Shown here one piece after another: positions 91-34,745 of a stretch of DNA of 36,605 nt (its first letter is position 1; every line of letters starts with the position of its first letter). The DNA is from a virus. Taxonomy: Duplodnaviria > Heunggongvirae > Uroviricota > Caudoviricetes. The DNA is taken from the IMG/VR virus record IMGVR_UViG_3300029219_000015; one strand, written 5' to 3'. Under the pieces are notes generated by a model. That model searched no databases, had not been told where the DNA came from, and saw nothing but the letters and a program-made list of their open reading frames with translations. Made by a program: the position numbers and the translations under genes.

Positions 91-177
91 GGGGAGTTAG
101 TCCGTAGAGGTAGCGGTGTAGACTGTAAATCTACTGTCATGGCGACTCGGGTGGTTCGACTCCATCACTCCCCACCA
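91..177 (+). tRNA. tRNA-Tyr (anticodon GTA), long variable arm, CCA encoded
   Basis: Acceptor stem GGGGAGT/ACTCCCC; anticodon stem GTAGA/TCTAC with loop CTGTAAA; about 15-nt variable arm; T-loop TTCGACT; 3' A-CCA. Confidence 0.8.
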
Positions 178-181
178 AATT

Positions 182-257
182 GCCGGTTTAGCTCAGTTGG
201 TAGAGCAGTCGCTTTGTAAGCGAATGGCCAGCGGTTCAAGTCCGTTAACCGGCACCA
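182..257 (+). tRNA. tRNA-Thr (anticodon TGT), CCA encoded
   Basis: Acceptor stem GCCGGTT/AACCGGC; D-arm GCTC-AGTTGGTA-GAGC; anticodon loop TTTGTAA; T-arm AGCGG-TTCAAGT-CCGTT; 3' A-CCA. Anticodon stem has one mismatch. Confidence 0.7.
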
Positions 258-577
258 ACACAACAGGTAAGAGCATTGGGCGAATCGGCGATACTGACCC
301 ACAAGGCCGTAAATCGATAGAGTCAGACCAGTGCTCTTACCGTTGTGAGGAAGTGCAGCTCTTTGAAGCAACCAGAAGATAAGCATCTGGCTTCACAACA
401 CAACGATAATATCATTACGGTTAATCGTCGTTCATGTGCACAATGACTGGTCGAAAGGTAGTGATCTTACCGTTGTGATGAATGCACAGGCTGATGTGCC
501 GCAACTACAGTAGTGCGCGCTTTGCGGGGCTTGCTACAACCCTGTGTCGGAGTTCAGTACCGACCATCACAATAGCT

Positions 578-664
578 GGAGAGTAGGGAGCATGGTGCTC
601 AAGCGGTCTTGAAAACCGTCCCATTGTGCAAACGATGATGGTTCGATTCCATTACTCTCCGCCA
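578..664 (+). tRNA. tRNA-Ser (anticodon TGA), long variable arm, CCA encoded
   Basis: Acceptor stem GGAGAGT/ACTCTCC; anticodon stem GCGGT/ACCGT with loop CTTGAAA; long variable arm; T-loop TTCGATT; discriminator G then CCA. Confidence 0.8.
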
Positions 665-666
665 GA

Positions 667-744
667 CACAGCGTTGAGCGGTTTGGCCTTTTAATCAACT
701 CGATTAAGACTCCGCTAACATAAACCAGACCGCTCAACGCTGTG
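667..744. repeat. Perfect 16-bp inverted repeat (CACAGCGTTGAGCGGT / ACCGCTCAACGCTGTG) around a 46-nt loop that itself contains TTAATC-AACTC-GATTAA
   Basis: Read directly from sequence immediately 3' of tRNA-Ser; possible processed stable RNA or structured element. Confidence 0.6.
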
Positions 745-823
745 ATAGACAATTACGGCAGACGTTCTTAACCATATAGCTTGCTAACATCCTAGCAACA
801 CTTTTTTAAGCGCAAAATCCAAA

Positions 824-843
824 GGGGCTTCGGCCCCTTTTTT
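824..843. terminator. Rho-independent terminator, usable in both directions
   Basis: GGGGC-TTCG-GCCCC followed by TTTTTT; an A-run precedes it on the + strand; sits between the tRNA cluster and the end of the minus-strand gene 845..1753. Confidence 0.75.
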
Positions 844-844
844 G

Positions 845-1753
845 TTAATGATTGCCTAGATATGATTTTAGTTCTTCTTTAATGATTAGTGAGTATTCTA
901 AAATATCACTTAGTAAAAATTTTGCTCTGTTAAAATACCCACCAAAAGAACCTAAAATTTCAGATGGTCTTTCTAAGAGCATCACAATATCATCTTCTTG
1001 CACTTTAGTAATGTAACTTCTAACAGCTCTTTCTCCAATAACTCTTTTCTTACCGTTTATTTCAGATTCATCTAAAACCTTATTTATAAATTTTTCTGTA
1101 TCATTGAATCGTCCACTATTGTGTACTATTGTATGTCTTAGTAGTTCAATTAGCTTGATGTTAAAGCGATAGTTTTTGCCAATCTTGTTGTTTGTTTCTA
1201 TCTCTTTGAAGCCAGGTATTTTATTTCTGAAAATTTTAGTTATTTTTTTCGATGGGTTACTTTTTGCTTTTAATAATCTGTAATAAACTTCCCTTTTCCC
1301 AATTTCATCATCTTCAACCTTACCAAAATCACTTGAGGACCATAAATCATTTCGAACACATACAGTATAGACATATATTGCCTCAATATAGTCTTCCAGT
1401 AACTCATAGGCTTCAGTAATAACCCACTGATATTGTTTATTTTTCAAAGTATTACACAATCTTATCTTTTCTTCTAAATCAATGGCGCTGTTACCTATCT
1501 CTAATGTTGAACCTGTATATGGGTTTGAACATAAATGGCGAGCTAACGTTGTGCCACACTTAATCTTAATAGTTTCATTAATATTAATAATAGTATCTGG
1601 ATTCTGTGCATACTCCACTTCTTTAAGAAGACGTTTTATATTTTTCTTTGTTGTATCATTTATCTGATTTAAATAATCAAAAAGTAAAGATATTTCTTCT
1701 CTAAATTCGTTGTATTTATTTTCAATCAAAGAATCAGACAACTTACCAATCAT
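845..1753 (-). CDS. Hypothetical protein on an AT-rich island; candidate HEPN/Abi-like defence protein (R-x4-H motif RHTIVH at about residues 206-211)
   Basis: 302-aa ORF with AGAGG 5 nt before the ATG; composition visibly far more AT-rich than flanks; K/E/I/N-rich; product assignment is inference from one short motif. Confidence 0.75.
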   Translation of the reverse strand: MIGKLSDSLIENKYNEFREEISLLFDYLNQINDTTKKNIKRLLKEVEYAQNPDTIININETIKIKCGTTLARHLCSNPYTGSTLEIGNSAIDLEEKIRLCNTLKNKQYQWVITEAYELLEDYIEAIYVYTVCVRNDLWSSSDFGKVEDDEIGKREVYYRLLKAKSNPSKKITKIFRNKIPGFKEIETNNKIGKNYRFNIKLIELLRHTIVHNSGRFNDTEKFINKVLDESEINGKKRVIGERAVRSYITKVQEDDIVMLLERPSEILGSFGGYFNRAKFLLSDILEYSLIIKEELKSYLGNH

Positions 1754-1926
1754 TAAAACCTCTATAAAATGTACATTTCAAGGCAATCCTTACTGTAATC
1801 TATTGTCGTAATCACTTCAATTGTTTACTAGTCAATCAATAAGTTACTACATACTTATCAAAAAAATCTGTTTGTAGTATAGTCTGATATGTTCGAATCA
1901 ATATTTATAAAGGTATTTGTTAAGTT

Positions 1927-2172
1927 ATGACGATCACTATCTACGGACGAGATAACTGCTCATACTGCAAACGTGCGGTCGAGCTGGCGAAGCAACTAAA
2001 GGGACATGGCAACGGTGATTATGAGTACATCGACATCACCACTGCCGGTATCGACAAGGAAAAACTAAGTGAAATTGTTGGTAAACCGGTAGAGACTATC
2101 CCCCAGGTGCTGATCGATGGCCAGCCGATTGGCGGATACACAGAACTGGCTGCATACGTCAGCACCCTCTGA
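1927..2172 (+). CDS. Glutaredoxin-like small redox protein (CSYC active site)
   Basis: 81 aa; N-terminal CxxC (CSYC) in a glutaredoxin-like context, C-terminal GGY motif; followed by a terminator. Confidence 0.8.
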   Translation: MTITIYGRDNCSYCKRAVELAKQLKGHGNGDYEYIDITTAGIDKEKLSEIVGKPVETIPQVLIDGQPIGGYTELAAYVSTL

Positions 2173-2178
2173 TTTTAA

Positions 2179-2199
2179 CGGCTCACAGGAGCCGTTTTT
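2179..2199 (+). terminator. Rho-independent terminator
   Basis: CGGCTC-ACAG-GAGCCG followed by TTTTT, 7 nt after the glutaredoxin stop. Confidence 0.7.
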
Positions 2200-2254
2200 A
2201 TTCCCACCAAACTCACTCCCATTTCCCTTAAAATTCAAAAAACAACGTCAAAAT

Positions 2255-2281
2255 GATTCCATACCTACTATGTATGGAATC
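2255..2281. promoter_or_regulatory. Perfect 10-bp inverted repeat GATTCCATAC-(7 nt)-GTATGGAATC; candidate recombinase core site or operator
   Basis: Read directly; about 100 bp upstream of the tyrosine-recombinase-like gene; geometry resembles tyrosine recombinase core sites. Confidence 0.35.
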
Positions 2282-2382
2282 ATTGCTGAAAATGAGTTAC
2301 TTTTACTCTTGATCCTATAAGAATCTATGCCTAATATACTGTTTACTTATACAGTGCATCGGCGTAACTCGGTGATTGTCAT

Positions 2383-3486
2383 ATGAAAAATAGCTTTGAC
2401 AGCGCACGCGCTGCGGAGAACACCTCAAAAGAGGCGATAGAGTATCTCGAAAGAGCATCTCAAATGCAGGCCGTTATGATCTCCCAGGTCAGCAATGACA
2501 TGAGATTCTCGGACGCATTCATGTTATTCACTCGCTTATCTCTGCTGATAACCAGACGTCGGCCAGAGATCGCTGTTCATTGTATTTTGATACATGTTTT
2601 GCCGCACATTGCCGATGTAAAAGTAAGTGACATTAATAGGTTCATGGTGAACCAACTGGTCAACCCACTAATACTGGATGGCAAAATTGTTATGGGCCGC
2701 CGCGTTTTCTCTCTGATGAAGCAGTTCCTTAGCTGGTGCGCCTTCCAGGGGATGATAGACGTGTCACCGTTAAACGATATGTCACTTAACAAAGTTGCCG
2801 GTGGCGCAAAGCCCACACCTCGCGAGCGGAAGCTGACCGACGCAGAGGTATGGGTGTTCTGGAATATATGGGACTACTTCAATGTGTGTGCTGGTACAAA
2901 ATGGGCGGCCAGGCTATGTCTTGTATCCGCAAGACGACCTGACGAAGTACTGCGGGCTAAAAAAAGTGAGTTCAATCTTAAGCGTGGGGTTTGGAATCAA
3001 GGCAAGAGGAACAAATCTGCCCGTGAGCATTCTCTGCCTTTAAGCTCATTAATGCGCACTTGTATTGAAGAGTTGTTCGAATATGGTAAAGACAGCCAGT
3101 GGCTCGTGCCTTCGAATAAAAAAATCGGGAAAGACCTTCCTATGTCTAAAGTGGCAATAGCCCAGGCATTACGTCGTATTCTGGAACGACCAGAACTGAT
3201 GGAGCTTGAGCCATTTACACCCCGAGATTTGCGCCGTACTGCGCGTAGTTACTTCCCAGCATTAGGCATAAGCCAGGAGGTATCACGTAAAATCATGAAC
3301 CACAGTCTTGAGGGGATAGATCGGGTCTACGACCGGCACGATTATATGGACGAGATGCGAGACGCCTTAGAAAGTTTCTCGACGTACATCGCATCAATCG
3401 TAGAGCAACCGGATTTAGACGAAATTGACCACAAATTTAAGGGAGATCGTCTATCAACAGAGCTTATTCGTGTAAATTTTTCATAG
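2383..3486 (+). CDS. Tyrosine recombinase/integrase-like protein, P4-integrase-type C-terminus, apparently lacking an N-terminal arm-binding domain
   Basis: C-terminal motifs ARRPDEV...HSLPLS...FTPRDLRRT...NHSLEGIDRVYDRHDY match the R/K/H-x-x-R/Y pattern of tyrosine recombinases; the box II position that I recall as His is Arg here. Start codon uncertain. Confidence 0.7.
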   Translation: MKNSFDSARAAENTSKEAIEYLERASQMQAVMISQVSNDMRFSDAFMLFTRLSLLITRRRPEIAVHCILIHVLPHIADVKVSDINRFMVNQLVNPLILDGKIVMGRRVFSLMKQFLSWCAFQGMIDVSPLNDMSLNKVAGGAKPTPRERKLTDAEVWVFWNIWDYFNVCAGTKWAARLCLVSARRPDEVLRAKKSEFNLKRGVWNQGKRNKSAREHSLPLSSLMRTCIEELFEYGKDSQWLVPSNKKIGKDLPMSKVAIAQALRRILERPELMELEPFTPRDLRRTARSYFPALGISQEVSRKIMNHSLEGIDRVYDRHDYMDEMRDALESFSTYIASIVEQPDLDEIDHKFKGDRLSTELIRVNFS

Positions 3487-3867
3487 AGACTTTATGGCCT
3501 CAACAACCTTTTGTGATGCGCCTTTCTCTTTACCGAATCGCTCGTTATATGCAGCAAGAACCTGTTTTTCGTCCTCGTTAAGAGGAGCAGTGCCTTCTTT
3601 GTATAAAAATGCTGCGAGTTCGGGTTGGCGTTCTTCCAGCACCATCATCATAAGACGACTTGGCTCAATGCCCAGTGCCAGCGCCAGCGGACGAACCTTA
3701 TCGATAGGCAAAGGAATTTTGCCGCTTTTAATTAAAGAAAGGTTGTTGGCGTTTTTATACCCAATTGTTTTGGCTATCTGGGCCTGGCTCATAGGTGAGG
3801 ATTCAATCAACCCTGCGATAAAAGCAGCGTAGCGACTTTCTATAAATTCAATCTTGTTATCAGACAT
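3481..3867 (-). CDS. Helix-turn-helix (XRE/Cro-CI-like) DNA-binding protein
   Basis: 128 aa; HTH-like segment SQAQIAKTIGYKNANNLSLIKSG; AAAGG 8 nt before the ATG; convergent with and overlapping the recombinase-like gene by 6 nt. Confidence 0.7.
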   Translation of the reverse strand: MSDNKIEFIESRYAAFIAGLIESSPMSQAQIAKTIGYKNANNLSLIKSGKIPLPIDKVRPLALALGIEPSRLMMMVLEERQPELAAFLYKEGTAPLNEDEKQVLAAYNERFGKEKGASQKVVEAIKSL

Positions 3868-4118
3868 GGTTACAACCTTTGCGCGTTCAATTCTCTCTGG
3901 TAAGTGCTTACCGATATTACATCAAAGGTTAGGGTTGTAAAGCTATTATCATTTTTTTCGATAGGCACTTAAAAGACCGGTTAAAGGCCATTGCACGGAG
4001 AAAAATTAGCCCAAAACAGGTAAGAAAATCAACTTGCATATGATATGAATGTATTCAGTATTGATACAAATTTTAGTAGTATTCCTTACCATAGTATAAG
4101 TTAGAATGGATTGATTGA

Positions 4119-4331
4119 ATGAACACCACTATTTCCAGCCTAATCGCTCTTGAGATCGGACACGTACAGAAATTAGCTGATGAGTGTGTAGCTGACATCC
4201 TCACCGATCTACCGAATGAGCAGATTCAGGTTGGTGTGAATGACACAACTGGCTTTATATTCGAACTTAACAACAAACGCTTCACGCTTCTCAATACCGG
4301 CTCCTGGTCTTTAGCCGTCAGAATCTGTTAA
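4119..4331 (+). CDS. Hypothetical small protein
   Basis: 70-aa ORF divergent from the HTH gene; weak RBS. Confidence 0.4.
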   Translation: MNTTISSLIALEIGHVQKLADECVADILTDLPNEQIQVGVNDTTGFIFELNNKRFTLLNTGSWSLAVRIC

Positions 4332-11597: not shown

Positions 11598-11871
11598 TAA
11601 AGAATTATGGCGCTTGTTGAGGAAGTCACTCCTCTTACGCACTTTGTTTTGCCATGCCGGCAGTTAGCTTCTGCCTTTGACTATTCATGCGGCAACCCCG
11701 CATTTCGCCACAATGGGCAATTCACTTTTATGGAATAAACTGGCCGTTGTGTCGATTTAATTAGCATGGCCTTACCATGCTAATTTATTCAACTTGTACA
11801 ATCCTACAAATCTATCCACTCAGGCTTACACCGTCTTCGTTATTGTAGAAATGAGGATCATCAGCGTTGAA

Positions 11872-12087
11872 TCAGCTTAGAGCAACGACATTTGCTGCTG
11901 CTGGGCCTTTAGCCCCATTCTCGATAGAGAATTCGACCTGCTGGCCTTCTTCCAAAGTGCGGAAATTATTACTCTGAATTGCCGAAAAATGTACAAAAAC
12001 ATCTTTACTGCCATCAGCAGGAGAAATAAAGCCAAAGCCTTTATCAGAGTTAAACCATTTTACTAAACCAGTCATTTTATTAGACAT
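11872..12087 (-). CDS. Cold-shock protein, CspA family
   Basis: 71 aa [38 protein letters not shown]... closely matches CspA (RNP1 KGFGFI and RNP2 VFVHF motifs); AAGAAGG 8 nt before the internal ATG at 12087. The ORF-track start at 12183 is rejected. Confidence 0.85.
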
Positions 12088-12416
12088 AGATATTACCTTC
12101 TTAATTTTGTGAGCCACATAGTGCGGCGAGAATTTGATCTGTATAGATTGGGACTTACTTAGGCACTTAAGGAGGAGACTCACGAAGAAGGGAAATCAGA
12201 AGATAACACTGAACTGAGACTGCTTTACTAAAACTGCTTACATAAGGTCTGTCTTGCAAACCAACGATGCTATTAACGCATACCCCTTCTTTTCATGCAA
12301 CCTTTATTTTTCAAAGATAACTAATTTTTGTCACCATTGGTTTAGTAAACGTTAACGAACCAGACGATGCCAGACACCTTTACAGAGAACAGATGCCCGC
12401 CAATTGGCGGGCATCA

Positions 12417-16370: not shown

Positions 16371-18710
16371 ATGGCAAAAGGAAAATCCGCACTGGCACTT
16401 GCTCTGAAAAAGAAAATCGGTAGCAACGACGAAATTCAGAAAGTAACTCATTGGATTGATACAGGCTTTCCACCGTTAAACAAAGCTATTTCTGGTCGTT
16501 ACGATGGCGGCTTCCCATGTGGTCGTATCGTCGAAGTATTCGGGCCACCAAGCGCGGGGAAATGTGTTACCGCAGACACCATGCTGCTGACGGAGCGTGG
16601 AATGGTAACAGTGAAAGAGTTGTTTGAGATTGAAGGGTACAAAGCGACATGCACTACTCGCGATGTAGAGCATAACGTTGGACTCATCAATGAAAATGGC
16701 GTGATAGAGAAGACCTCACACCTGACATGGAACAACCGTCGCAAATTCAAGCGTATTAAGCTGGCATCAGGCGGTTATATCGAGGCTACGTTCCGTCACC
16801 CAATCCGTGTGGTTGACGACTTAGGTAATGTCGTCTGGCGACATGCTGAAAAAATCAGTGTAGGCGACACGATTCCTTCAATGGTTGGCACACATCAATT
16901 CGGCGATCAGCACCTGGATGCCAATATCGCACAACTGATGGGCTATTTAATTGCTGACGGATACGTGGCCTCTGAAAATTCAGTGAATTTTTCTAACACA
17001 GATCCTTTCATCAAGGATGAGTACTACCGCCTCATTTCGCTGGTATCAGACAAGATGCCAGTTACGAGAAAACATAACGGCTCGGAAGACCATGTGCTGT
17101 TTAGCAAAGAGGTGCGTTCGCTGCTTTTTAAAGAATATGGTCTGGAGTATGAGAAAGCTGCTGGCAAGCAGGTTCCGTTGAGTGTGCGTCGCGCCAATAG
17201 CGAGGCTCAAATTGCATTCCTTCGCGGCTACTTTGAGCTGGAATGCCACGTCAATGATGGTCGCTGCATTGAGGTTGTGAGCGCGAGTGGGCTGCTGCTA
17301 CAGCAAATTCGCCTCATGCTCCTGAATCTGGGGATTACGTCAACTATCTCTGAAAAACACGTCGCGGGTTATGAAAATACATATTACCGGCTGTCATTCA
17401 GTGGCTCTAATTACGACCTTTTTCTGTCAACGATTGGTTTCGAATCTCCGGCACGTTTATCAGTGGCAACCAAACGGGACATTGGTTTTGACCGCACTTA
17501 CTCAGGCTATGTTCCGCACATCAGCGGCTTAGTGAAATCACTCTACGAGTCGCTCACCAAGACCACCCGTGAAGACTACGCTCTGGTAGACCACGTTATT
17601 GGCCGCGGCGATCGTGTCGGAATAGACAAACTGCGAGAAATCTATGTCTCCTTCATTGGCAGAAAGAATCGTTTTAACGAGCATCTGTTTGCACAACTGG
17701 CAGCGGTAATTGGCTCTAACTTGTTCTACGACGAAGTCGTGGCTATTGAGGAAGGTGAAGCACCAACGTTCGACGTAGCGATGCCGGAAACACACTCTTT
17801 CTGGTCTAACGGGATTATCAGCCACAACACATTCCTTGCAACAGCAGCGATGATCTCCGCTCAAAAACAAGATGGTCTGGCGGTATTCCTCGATCATGAA
17901 AACAGTTTTGACGTTGGCCTGGCTGTAGCCAATGGCCTGAACGCAGATGAGGATGACGGTCAGTGGGTATACAAGCAGCCAGATACCTTCGAAGACTCTG
18001 TAGAGTTGATCGGCACAATACTTAAATTGGTTCGTGATGAAGAGCTTATCCCCGAATCAGCACCTATCTGTATCGTGGCTGACTCTCTTGCGTCTATGGT
18101 TCCGAACTCCAAAGCCGAGAAGTTCGAAAAGATGGCTGAAGGCACAGCCAAAGACAAAGATCAGCTAAACATGAACGACAATACGGCACTGGCTCGTGCG
18201 ACGAGTGCGAACTTCCCTACTCTGGCTTTGTGGGCACGCAAATACAACGCCTGCATCATCTTCTTGAATCAGGTTCGCACAAAAATCGGTGTAATGTTTG
18301 GCGACCCTACTACGTCGCCAGGTGGAGATTCACCGAAGTTCTACGCTTCTGTACGTATCCGTCTTGGTGCATCGGTGATGAAGGATGGTAAAGAGAAGAT
18401 CGGCCAGGACGTAGGCGCAGAATGCATCAAAAACAAAGTTGCACCACCGTATGGCAAATGCACCTGGAAATTCTACTTCGATCCTACTCGTGGCCTCGAC
18501 GTTATCGAGTCGCTCGTCGAGTACATGCTGGAAGAAGGATACCTGCCAAAGAACGCCAGCGGTCGAGTAGAAATTGGTGACAAGAAATACACCAAATCAC
18601 AGATCGTCGAGATGTATCGGGAGAAGCCACTAGCTGAAATCATTGCGGCTTTACAGGCAATCGACGACCGGAGATCAAAAGACAATCCCACCGAGTCAGT
18701 AGAAGAGTAA
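16371..18710 (+). CDS. recA: RecA-family recombinase interrupted by an in-frame intein (precursor 779 aa; predicted mature protein about 357 aa)
   Basis: N-extein ends GRIVEVFGPPSAGK and the C-extein starts T, reconstituting Walker A GPPSAGKT; C-extein FLNQVRTKIGVMFGDPTTSPGGDSPKFYASVRIRLG matches the RecA core; AAAGGAG RBS. Confidence 0.85.
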   Translation: MAKGKSALALALKKKIGSNDEIQKVTHWIDTGFPPLNKAISGRYDGGFPCGRIVEVFGPPSAGKCVTADTMLLTERGMVTVKELFEIEGYKATCTTRDVEHNVGLINENGVIEKTSHLTWNNRRKFKRIKLASGGYIEATFRHPIRVVDDLGNVVWRHAEKISVGDTIPSMVGTHQFGDQHLDANIAQLMGYLIADGYVASENSVNFSNTDPFIKDEYYRLISLVSDKMPVTRKHNGSEDHVLFSKEVRSLLFKEYGLEYEKAAGKQVPLSVRRANSEAQIAFLRGYFELECHVNDGRCIEVVSASGLLLQQIRLMLLNLGITSTISEKHVAGYENTYYRLSFSGSNYDLFLSTIGFESPARLSVATKRDIGFDRTYSGYVPHISGLVKSLYESLTKTTREDYALVDHVIGRGDRVGIDKLREIYVSFIGRKNRFNEHLFAQLAAVIGSNLFYDEVVAIEEGEAPTFDVAMPETHSFWSNGIISHNTFLATAAMISAQKQDGLAVFLDHENSFDVGLAVANGLNADEDDGQWVYKQPDTFEDSVELIGTILKLVRDEELIPESAPICIVADSLASMVPNSKAEKFEKMAEGTAKDKDQLNMNDNTALARATSANFPTLALWARKYNACIIFLNQVRTKIGVMFGDPTTSPGGDSPKFYASVRIRLGASVMKDGKEKIGQDVGAECIKNKVAPPYGKCTWKFYFDPTRGLDVIESLVEYMLEEGYLPKNASGRVEIGDKKYTKSQIVEMYREKPLAEIIAALQAIDDRRSKDNPTESVEE
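16563..17828 (+). mobile_element. Intein (422 aa) with LAGLIDADG-type homing endonuclease motifs, inserted in the RecA P-loop
   Basis: Begins with Cys (CVTADTMLL), ends IISHN followed by extein Thr; internal LMGYLIADGYV and FLRGYFELECHV resemble LAGLIDADG motifs; boundaries inferred from extein continuity. Confidence 0.8.
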
Positions 18711-20904: not shown

Positions 20905-21236
20905 AGGCCATCCCATTCACTCTGTTGTTCCTTTCCTCGATCGTTGTGGCCGACACCACTGTTTATCAGTGTGAAATGTCTGTAGCCGACGTTAAGAATG
21001 GCGCTCTTACCGACGTCATAAAAGCACCATATGGAGCGATGGTCGTAGACAGCGGCGACCAGTTCTATGTTGTGCGTGACGATCGAGTGTTGTCATCCCC
21101 ATATCTCACAAACCGTAATGGTAAATTAACCGGCGTCGGAGAAGACCACTTCGTATACAACAAATACAAGGGCTTCTATGGCGTTCACGCTTCTCAGCAA
21201 AGCTACCTTTTCGATGACTGCAAGGAGGTTGGATAA
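20901..21236 (+). CDS. Hypothetical secreted protein
   Basis: 111 aa; N-terminal signal peptide MKAIPFTLLFLSSIVVA; GAGG RBS. Confidence 0.6.
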   Translation: MKAIPFTLLFLSSIVVADTTVYQCEMSVADVKNGALTDVIKAPYGAMVVDSGDQFYVVRDDRVLSSPYLTNRNGKLTGVGEDHFVYNKYKGFYGVHASQQSYLFDDCKEVG

Positions 21237-21448
21237 TGGCATTAACACTGGCAGGTCTGGAAATCGAGAAAACAAGCGGATACTGGCGTGCTAAGGGTTT
21301 CAAGCAGCCTGGCATTCTTGAGCGTCTGGAACGTGAAGATGGGTATATCGTCCACCAGCGGCGTGAATGGCGTATGTACGATCCAGAAACAGGAAAACTG
21401 ACTACAAAAGCCGGAACACTTTGGGGTCTGTTGAAGAAAATACACTAA
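21236..21448 (+). CDS. Hypothetical small basic protein
   Basis: 70 aa; GGAGG RBS; start overlaps the previous stop. Confidence 0.55.
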   Translation: MALTLAGLEIEKTSGYWRAKGFKQPGILERLEREDGYIVHQRREWRMYDPETGKLTTKAGTLWGLLKKIH

Positions 21449-21495
21449 ATGCAAACTGACTGCGGCACGTTCCGCAGTCATATTTCATAGTCGTC

Positions 21496-22028
21496 ACCGC
21501 TGACAGCATACACAATCAACTGCCGCTGATAGCATATCGAGAGTCTATCTCACCGCTCACAGCATACTTTACTCGATTTTTTACCGCTGACAGCATACTT
21601 AAGACATTGCATGAATAATGTGTACCGGTATGGGTATAACCAGAACAAAATTACCGCTGGCAGCATACGAAGGTCTGACATATGCCATTAATTACCGCTG
21701 ATAGCATATCCAAACAAAAATTCCTCAATAAAACACCGCTGACAGCATACGTTCTATCAGGGAGCAGCAGGCAATAAATACCTTTCACTACAAGTAATCA
21801 GCGCAATGGGAATAGAATGTTAGTGAGCGCAAACCTATATGGAATGCACTCTTCGAGGTTAGTAACCACTGGGGAGGTATAAAAGAGCATTGAGTGGTGA
21901 TAGATGATTTACCGCTCACAGCATACGTTCATCTCACTATACCGCTGGTAGCATATCTTTAACCGTTCACAGCATACTTTTCAGAAAAATAGCCGCTGAT
22001 GGCATACATTTCACCGCTGACAGCATAT
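21496..22028 (+). repeat. Iteron array: 12 direct copies of a 16-17 bp repeat (consensus ACCGCTGACAGCATAC) in two groups (21496-21750, 21910-22028), immediately 3' of the rep-like gene
   Basis: Copies start near 21496, 21522, 21551, 21582, 21652, 21693, 21734, 21910, 21940, 21961, 21991 and 22012; all in one orientation, spaced 21-70 bp. Confidence 0.85.
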
Positions 22029-23122
22029 CAAAGCAGTTTGAGACTATTGGAAAGGATCTCAATCATCTTGATATTTTCAGGCGTCAAATTCTGCGAAAGT
22101 TCAGTTATCTTGTTGATAATGTTCTGTTTAGCATCAATTTCCCCGGCTTTCTCATCTGGTTTTTTGGGTTCGATGTCTTCAGGTTTTGGCGGTGCGACTT
22201 TAAGTTTTGGATTGCGGCTGTGAATCTGGATATAGATCGACCGCCCTCGCTTAATCTCGCTGTATTCGAGATAGCCCAAATCTTGGAGAGCTTTTAAGCC
22301 GTTACGTATAGTCTGATTCTGCGAGCTGACATTCCTGCTACTCAAATTGAGTCGCGCACGCAATCGAGCAAGCGATACCGGCGCAGGCTTGGTTGGAAGA
22401 CTTTCGATGAAGGTGTACAGAGCCTGTGCTGTTTCTTTGCGTGGTAGCTTATTGATAACCTTTAACTGCAAAAGAACCTTATGGTCAAAGCGATATAGTT
22501 CGGCCAGCTTCGGTTCTGCATAGAACACCACCGTATCTTTCTGCTCGTTGTAGTCCACGCTATTGATGAGGTGCACCATCAGAAGCGAGATCTTGTTAGA
22601 GCCGTCGACGTTCTTTTCTTCATACGTTCTCTGGAAAGACAGAGTTGTACGCATGATCTTCAAAAGACTGTTTGTAAGCCGGTCGCGGAGTGTTTTGCGG
22701 ATCTGTGACGATGGATAGCCACAAAACTTCGCAAATTTCGTGATGCTTAACTCGACACGACCGTTAGGTTCGCCGTATTCTGCCAGCGAACGCACAACGC
22801 CCACCCACGTTTTGAAATCATGATCCATGTCGAGACGAGGACCGGTTATCTTGATATCGGAATAGCCTTCAGAACGGGCTACTTCGAGCTGAACAAGCTC
22901 CTTTGAAGCATCGATCTCATTTGGCTTGTTACGCTTGCTGTATTTTGTCCCCTTGAGCGTGGGCACGAACAATCCCAGCCGCATCAACGCAATTGGTTGG
23001 ACTGTATTGTTGCTATTAGGGACAAGTTCCCCTGTGTACAATTCAAGGGAACCTTCTTCAAAGTTGTCGAGATTATCTTCTACTTCTTTGTTATTTTTAC
23101 CTTTTTTATTTTTTGTGGACAT
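22028..23122 (-). CDS. Candidate iteron-binding replication initiator (RepA-like)
   Basis: 364 aa from the ATG at 23122 (AAAGGTG RBS); flanked on both sides by the same direct repeats; basic C-terminal half; family assignment is inferred from context, not a recognised motif. Confidence 0.6.
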   Translation of the reverse strand: MSTKNKKGKNNKEVEDNLDNFEEGSLELYTGELVPNSNNTVQPIALMRLGLFVPTLKGTKYSKRNKPNEIDASKELVQLEVARSEGYSDIKITGPRLDMDHDFKTWVGVVRSLAEYGEPNGRVELSITKFAKFCGYPSSQIRKTLRDRLTNSLLKIMRTTLSFQRTYEEKNVDGSNKISLLMVHLINSVDYNEQKDTVVFYAEPKLAELYRFDHKVLLQLKVINKLPRKETAQALYTFIESLPTKPAPVSLARLRARLNLSSRNVSSQNQTIRNGLKALQDLGYLEYSEIKRGRSIYIQIHSRNPKLKVAPPKPEDIEPKKPDEKAGEIDAKQNIINKITELSQNLTPENIKMIEILSNSLKLL

Positions 23123-23142
23123 GTGGACACCTTTGTCATTCA

Positions 23143-23244
23143 ACCGCTGACAGCATACTTGATTTGCCGCTGGCAGCATACCAAAAACAGTTGGCAGCAT
23201 ACGGCGAACCGTTGACAGACTATCAATTACCGCTGACAGCATAC
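23143..23244 (+). repeat. Upstream iteron group: 3 full and 2 partial copies of the same repeat in the rep promoter region
   Basis: Full copies near 23143, 23165 and 23228; partial copies near 23190 and 23208. Confidence 0.8.
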
Positions 23245-23284
23245 ATGAACATGGCTTCAGACCAGTCGTGGCGCGGCTTACAGC

Positions 23285-23357
23285 GATCGGGGATCTTATT
23301 TGATCTATACAAGGATCTATCTATGGATCTCTTTATTAGGATCTATCCTGTGGATAT
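23285..23357. promoter_or_regulatory. oriC-like segment: six GATC sites in 13-mer-like AT-rich units plus a DnaA-box-like 9-mer
   Basis: GATCTTATTTGAT, GATCTATACAAGG, GATCTATCTATGG, GATCTCTTTATTAG (close to the oriC R 13-mer), GATCTATCC, then TGTGGATAT (8/9 to TGTGGATAA) at 23349-23357. Confidence 0.6.
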
Positions 23358-23443
23358 GTGAATAATTAAAACAGGCATTTACTACCTTCGGCGCACCTGG
23401 TGGGTTATCGTTGCCTCGGCTAACAATCACAGAAAAATGACAT

Positions 23444-24088
23444 ATGGATCTAAAACGCACGCGCTGGGTTCGTCGTCTTGAAGACGGCTCATACACTATC
23501 GAATCAAATTCCAACCTGAATAAGCAGAAGTTGCTTTGTGACATCTGCGGTATAGCGGCGAAGTGCCCGATCTACGAAACCAGAATTAAACTTGATAAGG
23601 CTGGTGTGAATTTTCATTTAAACAGTTGCATCAGGTACGTTCCATTACTCGCATTTCGTAAACCGATCATCGGATTGGATGCTCCCTACTTCAACACACT
23701 CCGTTCAGGTGTGACGTGGCGAGATCGTTTATCACCAGACAAGCTGATTTGCCTCGTATCCGCAGACACAGGGAAAATCATCCGTTTTGGGAAAGTAGAC
23801 AAGGTTTACTCAGGCCCAGTAGACGAAATGTTGCGGAAACACAGCCGGTTTAATCATCTCTGTATGGGTGGTGAGAAAATCGAGAAGGTAGAAGAAGTGA
23901 TCCGCAAATCCTACGGACACTTTCTGACCAAAGATAGCCTGCTCACAGCAATCTACATCAGACATGTAAAACGTGAGTTCGACCTCGAATACCACAGCGA
24001 AGAAGAGCTTAACCTTGTTGACCCACGTCCAAAAGCTGGCGTCATAAGCATAAACGCAGCGCGTAAAAAGCCCACTGACGCGCTGTAA
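23444..24088 (+). CDS. Hypothetical protein with Cys-x2-Cys pair
   Basis: 214-aa ORF; no convincing RBS; function unknown. Confidence 0.5.
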   Translation: MDLKRTRWVRRLEDGSYTIESNSNLNKQKLLCDICGIAAKCPIYETRIKLDKAGVNFHLNSCIRYVPLLAFRKPIIGLDAPYFNTLRSGVTWRDRLSPDKLICLVSADTGKIIRFGKVDKVYSGPVDEMLRKHSRFNHLCMGGEKIEKVEEVIRKSYGHFLTKDSLLTAIYIRHVKREFDLEYHSEEELNLVDPRPKAGVISINAARKKPTDAL

Positions 24089-33565: not shown

Positions 33566-33641
33566 TCTATCTGGCCTTGTTCTCTCAATAAATGTAAACT
33601 CACGTAATGAATAAGTGGTTACTTATCTTTGTGAGGTTTTT

Positions 33642-34745
33642 GTGTCACTCCTTTTGAATCGTGAGCATACGAACGGTCAGGTAACAAACGCATCGTATGC
33701 AAAAGTTATTGAGACGGTGCTTAAAAGCGGCGTGCAGGCTGATGATCGCACAGGCACTGGTACTTTAAGCACCTGCTACGTTCCCTCTTACTACATGCTT
33801 ACTGGTGGGACTGTGCCGCTTATTTCTGGAAAGGCGGTAAATCTTAAGCCACTGCTTGTCGAACTTGAGTGGTATCTGAAAGGCACGGGCAACATCCAAT
33901 TTCTCAAGGATAACGGCGTTAAGATTTGGGATGCATGGGCCGATGAGAATGGCGATTTGGGGCCGGTTTACGGTAAGCAGTGGCGTCGATGGGAAGATAC
34001 CCGCATCGTGAGCCATAGTGAATATCTGAGCAAGATCGCTACTTTCCGTGAACGCGGGTACAAAGTCGAGGGATACCTGGGTATCAGTGAAGATCGCGTA
34101 GTGCTGTCCCGTGAAATCGATCAGCTACAGCGTATTGTCGATACACTGCGCACGAACCCTACCGATCGTCGCATCATGCTTAACGCATGGAACGTAGGCG
34201 AGCTTGAGGATATGAAACTGCCACCTTGCCACTTTGTCTTCTCTTTGTGGAGTCGTGAGCTGGATTTTGAAACCCGTTTAACGATGGCAACTGACATTGG
34301 TCTTCAACACAGTCGCCTCAGTTACGAGTCTATCTACACCAAGATGCTATACGATCTGGAGATGGACGGCAGTGTTACTGAAGCTGAACTGGATGAACTT
34401 GGAATCCCCAAACGCATCCTCAACTCCTGCCTCGTACAGCGTAGCGTAGACACTTTTGTTGGTATGCCATTCAATATTGCTGGCTATGGCATTCTCACTC
34501 ATTTTCTCGCGAAGATTACGGGTCACATGGCCGGTGCATTTGTGCATTTTGGCTTTGACGTGCATTTGTACAACAACCACATGGAAGGTGTGTGTGAGCT
34601 AATGAAACGACAGGCTCCAGAGCATTCAGATCCGGTCGTTATTTTCCCTCATGAATGGTCAGAGTTGGATGATTTCAAATGGGACGAGGTTTTAATTCTT
34701 GGCTATGACCCTCTATCGTGGATCAAGGTTCCAGTGGCGGTGTGA
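33642..34745 (+). CDS. thyA: Thymidylate synthase (ThyA type) with an internal insertion of about 50 aa
   Basis: DRTGTGT, WADENGDLGPVYGKQWRRW, LPPCH, GMPFNIAGYG and C-terminal KVPVAV match ThyA; start taken at the GTG at 33642 (GAGG 5 nt upstream), ORF-track start 33615 is the alternative. Confidence 0.8.
   Translation: MSLLLNREHTNGQVTNASYAKVIETVLKSGVQADDRTGTGTLSTCYVPSYYMLTGGTVPLISGKAVNLKPLLVELEWYLKGTGNIQFLKDNGVKIWDAWADENGDLGPVYGKQWRRWEDTRIVSHSEYLSKIATFRERGYKVEGYLGISEDRVVLSREIDQLQRIVDTLRTNPTDRRIMLNAWNVGELEDMKLPPCHFVFSLWSRELDFETRLTMATDIGLQHSRLSYESIYTKMLYDLEMDGSVTEAELDELGIPKRILNSCLVQRSVDTFVGMPFNIAGYGILTHFLAKITGHMAGAFVHFGFDVHLYNNHMEGVCELMKRQAPEHSDPVVIFPHEWSELDDFKWDEVLILGYDPLSWIKVPVAV

What the first reader, a model, noticed from the sequence alone, without database searches (positions are those of the whole stretch)
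21496..23357. Plasmid-type iteron replicon (rep-like gene, flanking iteron arrays, GATC-rich oriC-like segment with DnaA-box-like site) among phage-like genes
About 17 same-orientation copies of a 16-17 bp repeat (consensus ACCGCTGACAGCATAC, with internal GCTGnCAGC dyad) lie on both sides of a minus-strand 364-aa gene: 12 downstream (21496-22028) and 3 full plus 2 partial upstream (23143-23244), over its promoter. Next to the upstream group is an AT-rich stretch with six GATC sites in GATCTnTnTnT units and a TGTGGATAT 9-mer. This layout (origin with DnaA box and GATC-rich region, promoter iterons, rep, downstream control iterons) is that of P1 oriR-repA-incA and F-type replicons; the 13-mers and 9-mer resemble E. 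coli oriC elements. It suggests the element can replicate as a plasmid (phage-plasmid lifestyle) or uses an initiator-dependent theta origin.
Basis: partly seen in the sequence, partly recalled or inferred. Interest (0 to 1): 0.8.

Follow-up and report, generated by a model that had tools for sequence, protein, structure and literature searches.

The report
P1-type plasmid replicon in phage-plasmid
This is the plasmid-maintenance replication module (initiator gene, its repeated binding sites and a DnaA/Dam-type origin) of a well-known family of E. coli phage-plasmids; it is laid out part for part like that of phage P1, so it is real but ordinary.

Summary
Seventeen same-strand copies of ACCGCTGACAGCATAC flank a minus-strand 364-aa gene: 12 downstream and 5 upstream at 21-bp phase.

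The protein is 46% identical to P1 RepA (E 4e-86), hits Pfam Rep3_N, and its model matches only iteron initiators. The GATC/DnaA-box segment aligns at DNA level with the annotated P1 and P7 oriR. Spacings match P1 almost base for base, and as in P1 the control array starts on the rep stop codon.

The window is an SSU5-supergroup phage-plasmid of the pECOH89 type, replicon type IncFIB(H89-PhagePlasmid), MOB-suite rep_cluster_488. The replicon occurs in 120 of 5,426 complete E. coli genomes, always on plasmids, and in the deposited phage PhiR41_1. Relatives keep the same layout while Rep and iteron sequence diverge together.

It most likely works like P1 oriR-repA-incA: RepA, DnaA and Dam-methylated repeats open the origin, and the downstream array limits copy number. 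Function was not tested here.

Verdict: already known, low interest. Minor loose ends: a conserved 160-bp iteron-free island, a natural 9-iteron variant, and an over-extended 404-aa RefSeq gene call.

The parts
21457..21480 (.). Hairpin (9-bp stem, 6 G-C pairs) with terminator-like hits on both strands. It ends the upstream + strand operon (Cra-like 70-aa ORF 21236-21448) and marks the outer edge of the replicon.
   Evidence: ORF identity from PHROG 804 and the SSU5/P1 'Cra' annotation
21496..22028 (+). Control (incA-like) array: 12 direct iterons in the same orientation as the origin iterons, grouped 4 + 3 + 5. The last iteron overlaps the rep stop codon by 1 nt, as P1 incA copy 9 does.
   Evidence: P1 annotation; array conserved in relatives
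21751..21910 (.). 160-bp iteron-free island inside the control array; function unknown.
   Evidence: Conserved at 95-100% in 120 plasmid records, always in this replicon. No Rfam hit. Folded as RNA, the minus strand gives z -2.4 and the plus strand z 0.1.
22028..23122 (-). rep gene, 364 aa: RepA-family (Rep_3, WH1-WH2) iteron initiator. It has a roughly 55-aa C-terminal linker plus helix that P1 RepA lacks but RepFIB-type RepA proteins share.
23143..23244 (+). Origin (incC-like) array: 5 iterons at 23/21/21/21-bp spacing, directly upstream of rep.
   Evidence: P1 incC spacing is 22/21/21/21
23155..23184 (-). Inferred rep promoter (TTGGTA, 18 nt, AAGTAT) lying between and within the last three iterons, at the position equivalent to P1 PrepA. 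Weak match to consensus; inferred only.
   Evidence: relaxed scan and P1 PrepA hexamers TTGCTA/TAGGAT; the strict scan found none
23245..23284 (.). G+C-rich spacer of 41 bp between the iterons and the GATC repeats (40 bp in P1), with conserved blocks CCAG...GCGGC.
23285..23343 (.). A+T-rich GATC repeat region with six Dam sites; the presumed unwinding and SeqA-sequestration element. It is homologous to the five annotated Dam sites of P1 oriR.
23349..23365 (-). Two tandem DnaA boxes, ATATCCACA and TTATTCACA, overlapping by 1 nt. They align with the annotated DnaA site of P1 oriR.
23143..23385 (-). Predicted minimal origin, defined by equivalence to the 242-bp P1 oriR feature.
   Evidence: Coordinate mapping; inferred.

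Best explanation
This is the prophage-plasmid maintenance replicon of an SSU5-supergroup, pECOH89-type phage-plasmid (IncFIB(H89-PhagePlasmid), rep_cluster_488). It is a homologue of P1 oriR-repA-incA. The proposed mechanism is inferred from P1. RepA monomers bind the five phased origin iterons (23143-23244). Host DnaA binds the tandem boxes (23349-23365). [quoted passage not shown] After initiation the hemimethylated GATC cluster is sequestered by SeqA. RepA bound to the origin iterons also covers its own promoter, which gives autorepression. The 12 downstream iterons (21496-22028) hold copy number low by titrating RepA and by RepA-mediated pairing ('handcuffing') with origin iterons, and they define incompatibility. 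Shown here: the sequence anatomy, the homology of protein and origin, conservation of the layout, and exclusively plasmid location. Inferred: every biochemical step, the promoter, and the copy-number role.
For: Repeat statistics and layout. GATC cluster and two DnaA boxes. RepA homology: P1 RepA 46% identity over 278 aa, E 4e-86; pMT1 RepA 49%; pO111-type Rep 45%; Pfam Rep3_N above cut-off; PHROG 775; 477 homologues, all carrying PF01051 among the 120 listed, and those with names called RepA, RepB or RepFIB. AlphaFold model with a folded core at residues 70-300, whose top 11 Foldseek PDB hits are RctB domains 2-3, RepE, a Rep-DUE complex and a WH1 domain, with pi lower down. The origin aligns at DNA level with P1 and P7 oriR, whose Dam sites, DnaA site, iterons and PrepA are annotated in the records. 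Distances match P1: iterons to first GATC 41 vs 40 bp, first GATC to DnaA boxes 64 vs 60 bp, and the control array starts on the stop codon in both. The layout is conserved in Klebsiella, E. albertii, pB20 and PhiR41_1. Rep and iterons co-diverge in sister replicons. There are 188 plasmid records. 120 of 5,426 complete E. coli genomes carry it, at 185 places, all on plasmids. It is the only replicon typed in p503440_100, pB20 and a 62-kb E. albertii derivative. The family is described as phage-plasmids and encodes its own dam, parA and parB (PMC3999498, PMC7969092). MW590712.1, which carries this replicon, is cited as highly similar to plasmids typed IncFIB(H89-PhagePlasmid) (PMC12838234).
Against: Nothing was tested functionally here. 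No consensus sigma-70 promoter was found among the origin iterons by the strict scan, and the proposed one matches only 7 of 12 positions. P1's second set of DnaA boxes in the repA leader has no room here, because the leader is about 20 nt. All 12 control iterons are direct, whereas P1, pMT1 and the pO111 type mix orientations, so pairing geometry may differ. NCBIfam and a PDB sequence search gave no hit. The model is only moderately confident (pLDDT 69, TM 0.25-0.41). The 160-bp island in the control array is unexplained.
Confidence: 0.9

Rival explanations
1. The module is the lytic (vegetative) origin of the phage rather than the plasmid-maintenance origin: Rep-driven initiation would start genome amplification after induction.
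For: It lies inside a DNA-metabolism block with DnaE, SSB, flap endonuclease, RecA, SbcCD-like and NrdAB genes. No second origin was identified in the window.
Against: Protein and origin are homologous to P1's plasmid origin oriR, which the P1 record annotates as the origin of plasmid replication. A 12-iteron negative-control array is a low-copy device. A 62-kb E. albertii derivative that has lost much of the element still persists as a plasmid with this as its only typed replicon. All 185 E. coli occurrences are on resident plasmids.
Confidence: 0.05
2. The protein is a winged-helix transcription regulator and the repeats are operator arrays controlling neighbouring genes, with no origin function.
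For: Iteron initiators do repress their own promoters, and winged-helix regulators appear among the weak Foldseek hits (ranks 17 and below).
Against: E 4e-86 to P1 RepA. All significant fold hits are initiators. The adjoining segment is homologous to P1 oriR, with Dam sites and DnaA boxes that an operator would not need.
Confidence: 0.02
3. The replicon is a decaying relic, and another replicon outside the window maintains the element.
For: Only 36.6 kb of a roughly 100-110 kb element is visible. One origin iteron (23208) carries 4 mismatches.
Against: The ORF is intact and at least 95% identical across more than 110 records. The array layout is conserved to the base pair in E. coli and E. albertii. 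The weak fourth origin iteron is closer to consensus in PhiR41_1, pB20 and Klebsiella. MOB-suite typing lists no other replicon in three complete records.
Confidence: 0.03

Closest known systems
Phage P1 / P7 plasmid replicon oriR-repA-incA (IncY)
   Same: RepA is 46% identical. There are five origin iterons at about 21-bp phase over the rep promoter region, then a 40-41-bp G+C-rich spacer, a GATC repeat region and tandem DnaA boxes at the outer edge, all alignable at 73-77% DNA identity. The downstream control array begins on the rep stop codon.
   Different: The iteron sequence differs: 16-bp core ACCGCTGACAGCATAC against P1's 19-bp TTTCCCTCCAGCACACATC, sharing only a CAGCA-type core. There are 12 rather than 9 control iterons, all direct (P1 has 6 of 9 inverted), interrupted by a 160-bp island. 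There are six rather than five GATC sites. There are no DnaA boxes in the short rep leader. Rep has a roughly 55-aa C-terminal extension. par is not adjacent. The host element is SSU5-like, not P1-like.
RepFIB replicons (IncFIB plasmids; the rep-flanked-by-repeats layout of P307/F RepFIB is recalled from memory)
   Same: Same protein family at 50-55% identity, including the C-terminal linker and helix. PlasmidFinder files this replicon as an IncFIB variant (PMC12838234).
   Different: The iterons differ, and the replicon co-resides with IncFIB(AP001918) plasmids in one strain (PMC12838234), so it behaves as a separate incompatibility specificity. RepFIB origin sequences were not examined here.
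pMT1 / pHCM2 / SSU5 RepA replicon (sister variant on the same phage-plasmid backbone)
   Same: It sits in the same genomic slot between the same flanking genes (336-bp and 213-bp ORFs on one side, a 645-bp ORF on the other). RepA is 49% identical. Iterons lie on both sides, and the GATC/DnaA-box module is homologous.
   Different: The iteron consensus differs (TACTCTCTACAGTGGAT), the orientation downstream is mixed, and more sequence lies between rep and the origin module. It is typed IncFIB (pMT); the paper read lists IncFIB(pLF82-PhagePlasmid) as a replicon type separate from H89, and the pECOH89 paper gives 48% RepA identity to pLF82.
pO111-type phage-plasmid replicon (p321-pO111)
   Same: Rep is 45% identical, and the origin module is 78-83% identical over about 110 bp.
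   Different: Rep is 294 aa without the C-terminal extension. Iterons are TCGCGTATAGTCAAC, with inverted copies downstream.

Membership tests
P1 RepA-type iteron replicon (oriR-repA-incA architecture) | Initiator homologous to P1 RepA | tested here: met
   BLASTP gives 46% identity over 278 aa, E 4e-86; PHROG 775, E 4.6e-133.
P1 RepA-type iteron replicon (oriR-repA-incA architecture) | Five phased initiator-binding iterons immediately upstream of rep, forming the origin core | tested here: met
   Five copies at 23143-23244, spaced 23/21/21/21 bp against 22/21/21/21 bp in P1. Binding itself was not tested.
P1 RepA-type iteron replicon (oriR-repA-incA architecture) | GATC (Dam) repeat region and DnaA boxes on the far side of the origin iterons | tested here: met
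   Six GATC sites in 60 bp and two tandem DnaA boxes, alignable with the annotated P1 and P7 features.
P1 RepA-type iteron replicon (oriR-repA-incA architecture) | Separate downstream iteron array that controls copy number and incompatibility | tested here: inconclusive
   The array is present (12 iterons, 21496-22028, starting on the stop codon as in P1). Its control function was not tested. A natural 9-iteron variant exists.
P1 RepA-type iteron replicon (oriR-repA-incA architecture) | Autonomous, RepA-, DnaA- and Dam-dependent replication; chaperone activation of RepA | not testable with these tools
   Needs cloning and host-mutant tests. The only indirect support is exclusive plasmid location and being the sole typed replicon.
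P1 RepA-type iteron replicon (oriR-repA-incA architecture) | rep promoter embedded in the origin iterons (autorepression) | tested here: inconclusive
   The strict scan found no promoter. A weak TTGGTA-N18-AAGTAT lies at the position equivalent to P1 PrepA.
Rep_3 (PF01051) WH1-WH2 iteron initiators | Profile match above the curated threshold | tested here: met
   Rep3_N 37.5 bits against a cut-off of 22.4. Rep3_C is only 13.0 bits against 21.1, below the cut-off.
Rep_3 (PF01051) WH1-WH2 iteron initiators | Two winged-helix domains in tandem | tested here: met
   AlphaFold model with two helix/beta-hairpin modules at residues 70-210 and 214-303. Foldseek top hits are RctB domains 2-3, RepE, a Rep-DUE complex and pi. 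Confidence is moderate (pLDDT 69).
SSU5-supergroup phage-plasmids (pECOH89 type) | Near-identity and synteny with named members, with phage genes in the backbone | tested here: met
   98.8% identity to phage PhiR41_1, and 95-99.8% to more than 110 plasmids of 100-115 kb, including the 111,741-bp pB20. Same flanking genes as SSU5 and pMT1. Window genes match the set listed for pECOH89. Virion genes lie outside the window.
   The GATC units match the 13-mer consensus at only 6-9 of 11 positions (by eye, consensus from memory). There are only two DnaA boxes. A dedicated Rep with iterons is present.

The most novel reading that the evidence does not exclude
The roughly 110-bp host-factor module (G+C-rich spacer, GATC repeats, tandem DnaA boxes) stays at 67-84% DNA identity between all pairs of P1, pO111-type, SSU5/pMT1, Klebsiella and this replicon, whether their Reps are 45% or 85% identical. 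BLASTN finds this module but not the rep genes. One reading is that the module is an exchangeable cassette recombining among enterobacterial phage-plasmid replicons. Another is that almost every base is constrained by host DnaA/Dam/SeqA. Either way, co-resident phage-plasmids would share one host-coupled timing device under different Rep/iteron specificities. Separately, the conserved 160-bp island splitting the control array, and natural iteron-number variants (12 vs 9), could act as a copy-number rheostat relevant to gene-dosage phenotypes. A 2026 preprint on phage-plasmid heteroresistance that mentions repA 41 times could not be read.
Probability: 0.2. Interest if true: 0.35.

Novelty: already known. 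Interest (0 to 1): 0.12.

Why it matters
The replicon explains how this common E. coli phage-plasmid persists as a low-copy plasmid. The element is carried by about 2% of complete genomes and sometimes bears blaCTX-M-15. The replicon also sets the element's incompatibility and replicon type. The base-level map made here (minimal origin, 5+12 iterons, DnaA boxes, true start codon) is useful for annotation, for building mini-replicons, and for interpreting copy-number variants. It adds no new biology beyond the P1 paradigm.

Tried and rejected
- The 404-aa RefSeq/PGAP gene model (start at 23242) was rejected. Its extra 40 aa are the translated origin iterons (MLSAV... repeats) and it has no Shine-Dalgarno sequence. 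The ATG at 23122 has AAGGTG 5 nt upstream, and alignment to P1 and RepFIB N-termini starts there.
- The GCTGnCAGC dyad as a functional dimer site was rejected. It is absent from sister iterons (CTATTCTGTAGGCGGT in L009; pMT1; pO111 type).
- An inverted iteron-like site inside rep (22775-22790, repeats I1/I3/I4) has 4 mismatches. Five such sites occur in the window, so it is within chance.
- IHF consensus sites: none in the replicon.
- Rfam: no RNA family in 21400-23500.
- RNA folding of the 160-bp island is marginal on the minus strand (z -2.4) and null on the plus strand.
- NCBIfam gave no hit for Rep or the neighbouring ORFs.
- The PDB sequence search gave no hit; fold search was needed.
- The strict promoter scan found no rep promoter.
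- The neighbouring 214-aa ORF (23444-24088), conserved next to the origin across SSU5-type elements, has no Pfam or NCBIfam match and only PHROGs of unknown function.
- Preprint 10.64898/2026.08.19.745698 could not be opened.
- Cassette exchange of the origin module: the pairwise identities are too noisy over 112 columns to decide.
Full report
**1. What is in the sequence**

The stated region holds a minus-strand ORF at 22028-23122 (364 aa). Its ATG is preceded at 5 nt by AAGGTG.

The 16-mer ACCGCTGACAGCATAC, allowing 3 mismatches, occurs 16 times on the + strand between 21496 and 23244. Shuffles of the window give 0.29 expected. A seventeenth copy at 23208 has 4 mismatches but sits exactly in the 21-bp phase.

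- Twelve copies lie downstream of the gene, at 21496-22028, grouped 4 + 3 + 5. Spacings are 26, 30, 31, 70, 41, 41, 176, 30, 21, 30 and 21 bp.
- Five lie upstream, at 23143-23244, spaced 23, 21, 21 and 21 bp.
- Position-wise information content defines a 16-bp core.

Beyond the upstream group the order is:
- a 41-bp G+C-rich spacer;
- six GATC sites within 23285-23343, the densest cluster in the window, which averages 4.6 per kb;
- two tandem DnaA boxes on the minus strand, ATATCCACA (23349-23357) and a perfect TTATTCACA (23357-23365).

**2. The protein**

- Pfam gives Rep3_N at 37.5 bits, against a cut-off of 22.4. PHROG 775 matches at E 4.6e-133.
- Direct comparison gives 46% identity to P1 RepA over 278 aa (E 4e-86). 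It gives 49% to pMT1 RepA and 45% to the Rep of a pO111-type phage-plasmid.
- A database search found 477 homologues. All 120 listed carry PF01051, and those that have names are called RepA, RepB-family or RepFIB.
- An alignment shows that the roughly 55-aa C-terminal linker plus helix, absent from P1 RepA, is usual for RepFIB-type proteins.
- An AlphaFold model (pLDDT 69, core residues 70-300 well folded) finds only iteron initiators among its significant PDB matches. These are RctB domains 2-3, RepE, a Rep-DUE complex and a WH1 domain, with pi lower down.
- The RefSeq 404-aa model adds 40 residues that are simply the translated origin iterons. I regard it as an over-extension.

**3. The origin is homologous to P1 oriR**

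BLASTN of 23130-23445 against phages hits the P1 and P7 records at 77% identity (E 1e-11). The hit falls exactly on the features annotated there as Dam methylation sites, the DnaA site and oriR. The six-way alignment keeps the GATC sites, the DnaA boxes and blocks of the G+C-rich spacer invariant.

Distances are nearly the same as in P1:

| Feature | This window | P1 |
|---|---|---|
| Origin iteron spacing | 23/21/21/21 bp | 22/21/21/21 bp |
| Last origin iteron to first GATC | 41 bp | 40 bp |
| First GATC to DnaA boxes | 64 bp | 60 bp |
| Last control iteron vs rep stop codon | overlaps by one base | overlaps by one base |

Differences from P1:
- The iteron sequence differs; only a CAGCA-type core is shared.
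- There are 12 direct control iterons rather than 9 of mixed orientation, and a 160-bp iteron-free island interrupts the array.
- There are six GATC sites rather than five.
- There is no second set of DnaA boxes, because the rep leader is only about 20 nt.
- No par genes are adjacent.

**4. What element this is**

- The 2-kb region is 95-99.8% identical to 119 full-length plasmid records, mostly 100-115 kb and non-mobilizable, from Escherichia and Shigella. It is 98.8% identical to the deposited phage PhiR41_1.
- Records are typed rep_cluster_488 only.
- MW590712.1, which carries this replicon, is cited as highly similar to plasmids that PlasmidFinder types as IncFIB(H89-PhagePlasmid), the pECOH89 type (PMC12838234; PMC3999498).
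- The flanking genes are the same as around repA in SSU5 and pMT1.
- The rest of the window encodes the DNA-metabolism set listed for pECOH89: DnaE, SSB, flap endonuclease, RecA, SbcCD-like proteins, NrdAB, ThyA and DHFR.
- SSU5-related elements are a recognised phage-plasmid supergroup (PMC7969092).
- Among 5,426 complete E. coli genomes, 120 carry the replicon at 185 places. All are on plasmids and none on a chromosome.
- A 62-kb E. albertii derivative keeps it as its only typed replicon.

**5. Comparative support for function**

- Klebsiella relatives (77% DNA identity) keep the same iteron consensus, with 9 downstream and 5 upstream copies.
- E. coli, E. albertii and pB20 copies keep the 12+5 layout to the base pair.
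- PhiR41_1 has lost three control iterons through an 87-bp iteron-to-iteron deletion.
- Sister replicons whose Rep is 61% or 78% identical have altered iterons, for example CTATTCTGTAGGCGGT. They keep the five-copy, 21/21/21/23-bp origin array and the control array starting at the stop codon.
- pMT1 and the pO111 type each have their own iterons on both sides of rep.

Rep and iterons therefore co-diverge, as expected for incompatibility specificities. Consistent with this, IncFIB(AP001918) and IncFIB(H89-PhagePlasmid) plasmids coexist in one strain.

**6. Mechanism**

The mechanism is inferred from established knowledge of P1 and from the P1 record's annotation.

- RepA monomers bind the five origin iterons, and DnaA binds the tandem boxes.
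- Together they melt the Dam-methylated A+T-rich GATC repeats, and host helicase and polymerase then carry out theta replication.
- SeqA sequesters the hemimethylated repeats after firing.
- RepA on the origin iterons represses its own promoter.
- The downstream array limits copy number by titration and handcuffing.

General features of iteron control are reviewed in PMC6090056. The element family encodes its own dam.

The promoter is the weakest step. A strict scan found none. Only a 7-of-12 match, TTGGTA-N18-AAGTAT, lies at the position of P1 PrepA.

**7. Rivals**

- A lytic-origin role is unlikely. The homologue is P1's plasmid origin, and a truncated derivative persists as a plasmid.
- A pure transcription-factor reading is excluded by the homologies.
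- A relic is excluded by conservation and by sole-replicon status.

**8. Loose ends**

- The 160-bp island (21751-21910) is conserved in 120 records and found only in this context. It has no Rfam match and only marginal RNA structure.
- The origin host-factor module is 67-84% identical in all pairwise comparisons regardless of Rep divergence. This indicates either very strong constraint or exchange; the data cannot decide.
- No IHF consensus site lies in the replicon.

**9. Verdict**

The finding is real and correctly interpreted, but it is a catalogued replicon type on a well-described phage-plasmid family, organised like the textbook P1 replicon. Novelty: already known. Interest: low.

Noticed in passing
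window 16371-18710 (+): The RecA-like gene (779 aa) is interrupted by an intein with a LAGLIDADG homing-endonuclease domain (Pfam RecA, Intein_splicing, LAGLIDADG_3). The near-identical plasmid p503440_100 carries an intein-less 357-aa allele. Phage PhiR41_1 carries the 779-aa allele.
   Followed up: partly
window 11847-12265 (-): Full-length match to the cspA thermoregulator RNA (Rfam RF01766, 185.7 bits), implying a cold-shock-type csp gene with its regulatory 5' UTR on the phage-plasmid.
   Followed up: no
window 91-664 (+): Cluster of three tRNA genes (Tyr-GTA, Thr-TGT, Ser-TGA) at the window start. Rfam confirms two of them.
   Followed up: no
window 23123-23242 (-); RefSeq WP_001717293.1 in L001: PGAP annotates Rep as 404 aa. 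The 40-aa N-terminal extension is the translation of the origin iterons (MLSAV... repeats), kept open because the iterons are spaced 21 bp apart. It is probably an annotation over-extension repeated in hundreds of records.
   Followed up: partly
L002 (PhiR41_1) about 6097, versus window 21496-21583: The phage record lacks 87 bp, which equals three control iterons, through a deletion between two identical iterons. This gives a 9+5 layout instead of 12+5 and is predicted to raise copy number.
   Followed up: partly
window 21751-21910: A 160-bp iteron-free island splits the control array. It is conserved at 95-100% in 120 plasmid records and never found outside this replicon. It is absent from the Klebsiella version. 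No function could be assigned.
   Followed up: partly
window 23256-23376, with L003, L005, L006, L007, L008: The origin host-factor module is 67-84% identical between all replicon pairs, even where the Reps are only about 45% identical. P1 vs Klebsiella (84%) slightly exceeds window vs Klebsiella (80%). This suggests either saturating constraint or module exchange.
   Followed up: partly
window 23444-24088 (+): A 214-aa ORF of unknown function (PHROG 2105, no Pfam or NCBIfam match) always sits next to the origin in SSU5, pMT1, Klebsiella and L009 elements, whichever Rep variant is present.
   Followed up: partly
window 33615-34745 (+): In the thymidylate synthase homologue, 350 residues span a 265-position Pfam model, implying an insertion of roughly 85 aa.
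   Followed up: no
L010 (Rosenbergiella contig) 559-4215: A 78%-identical Rep with related iterons sits next to parA-parB and Mrr/Abi genes rather than the SSU5-type neighbours. The replicon therefore also occurs with different neighbouring genes.
   Followed up: no
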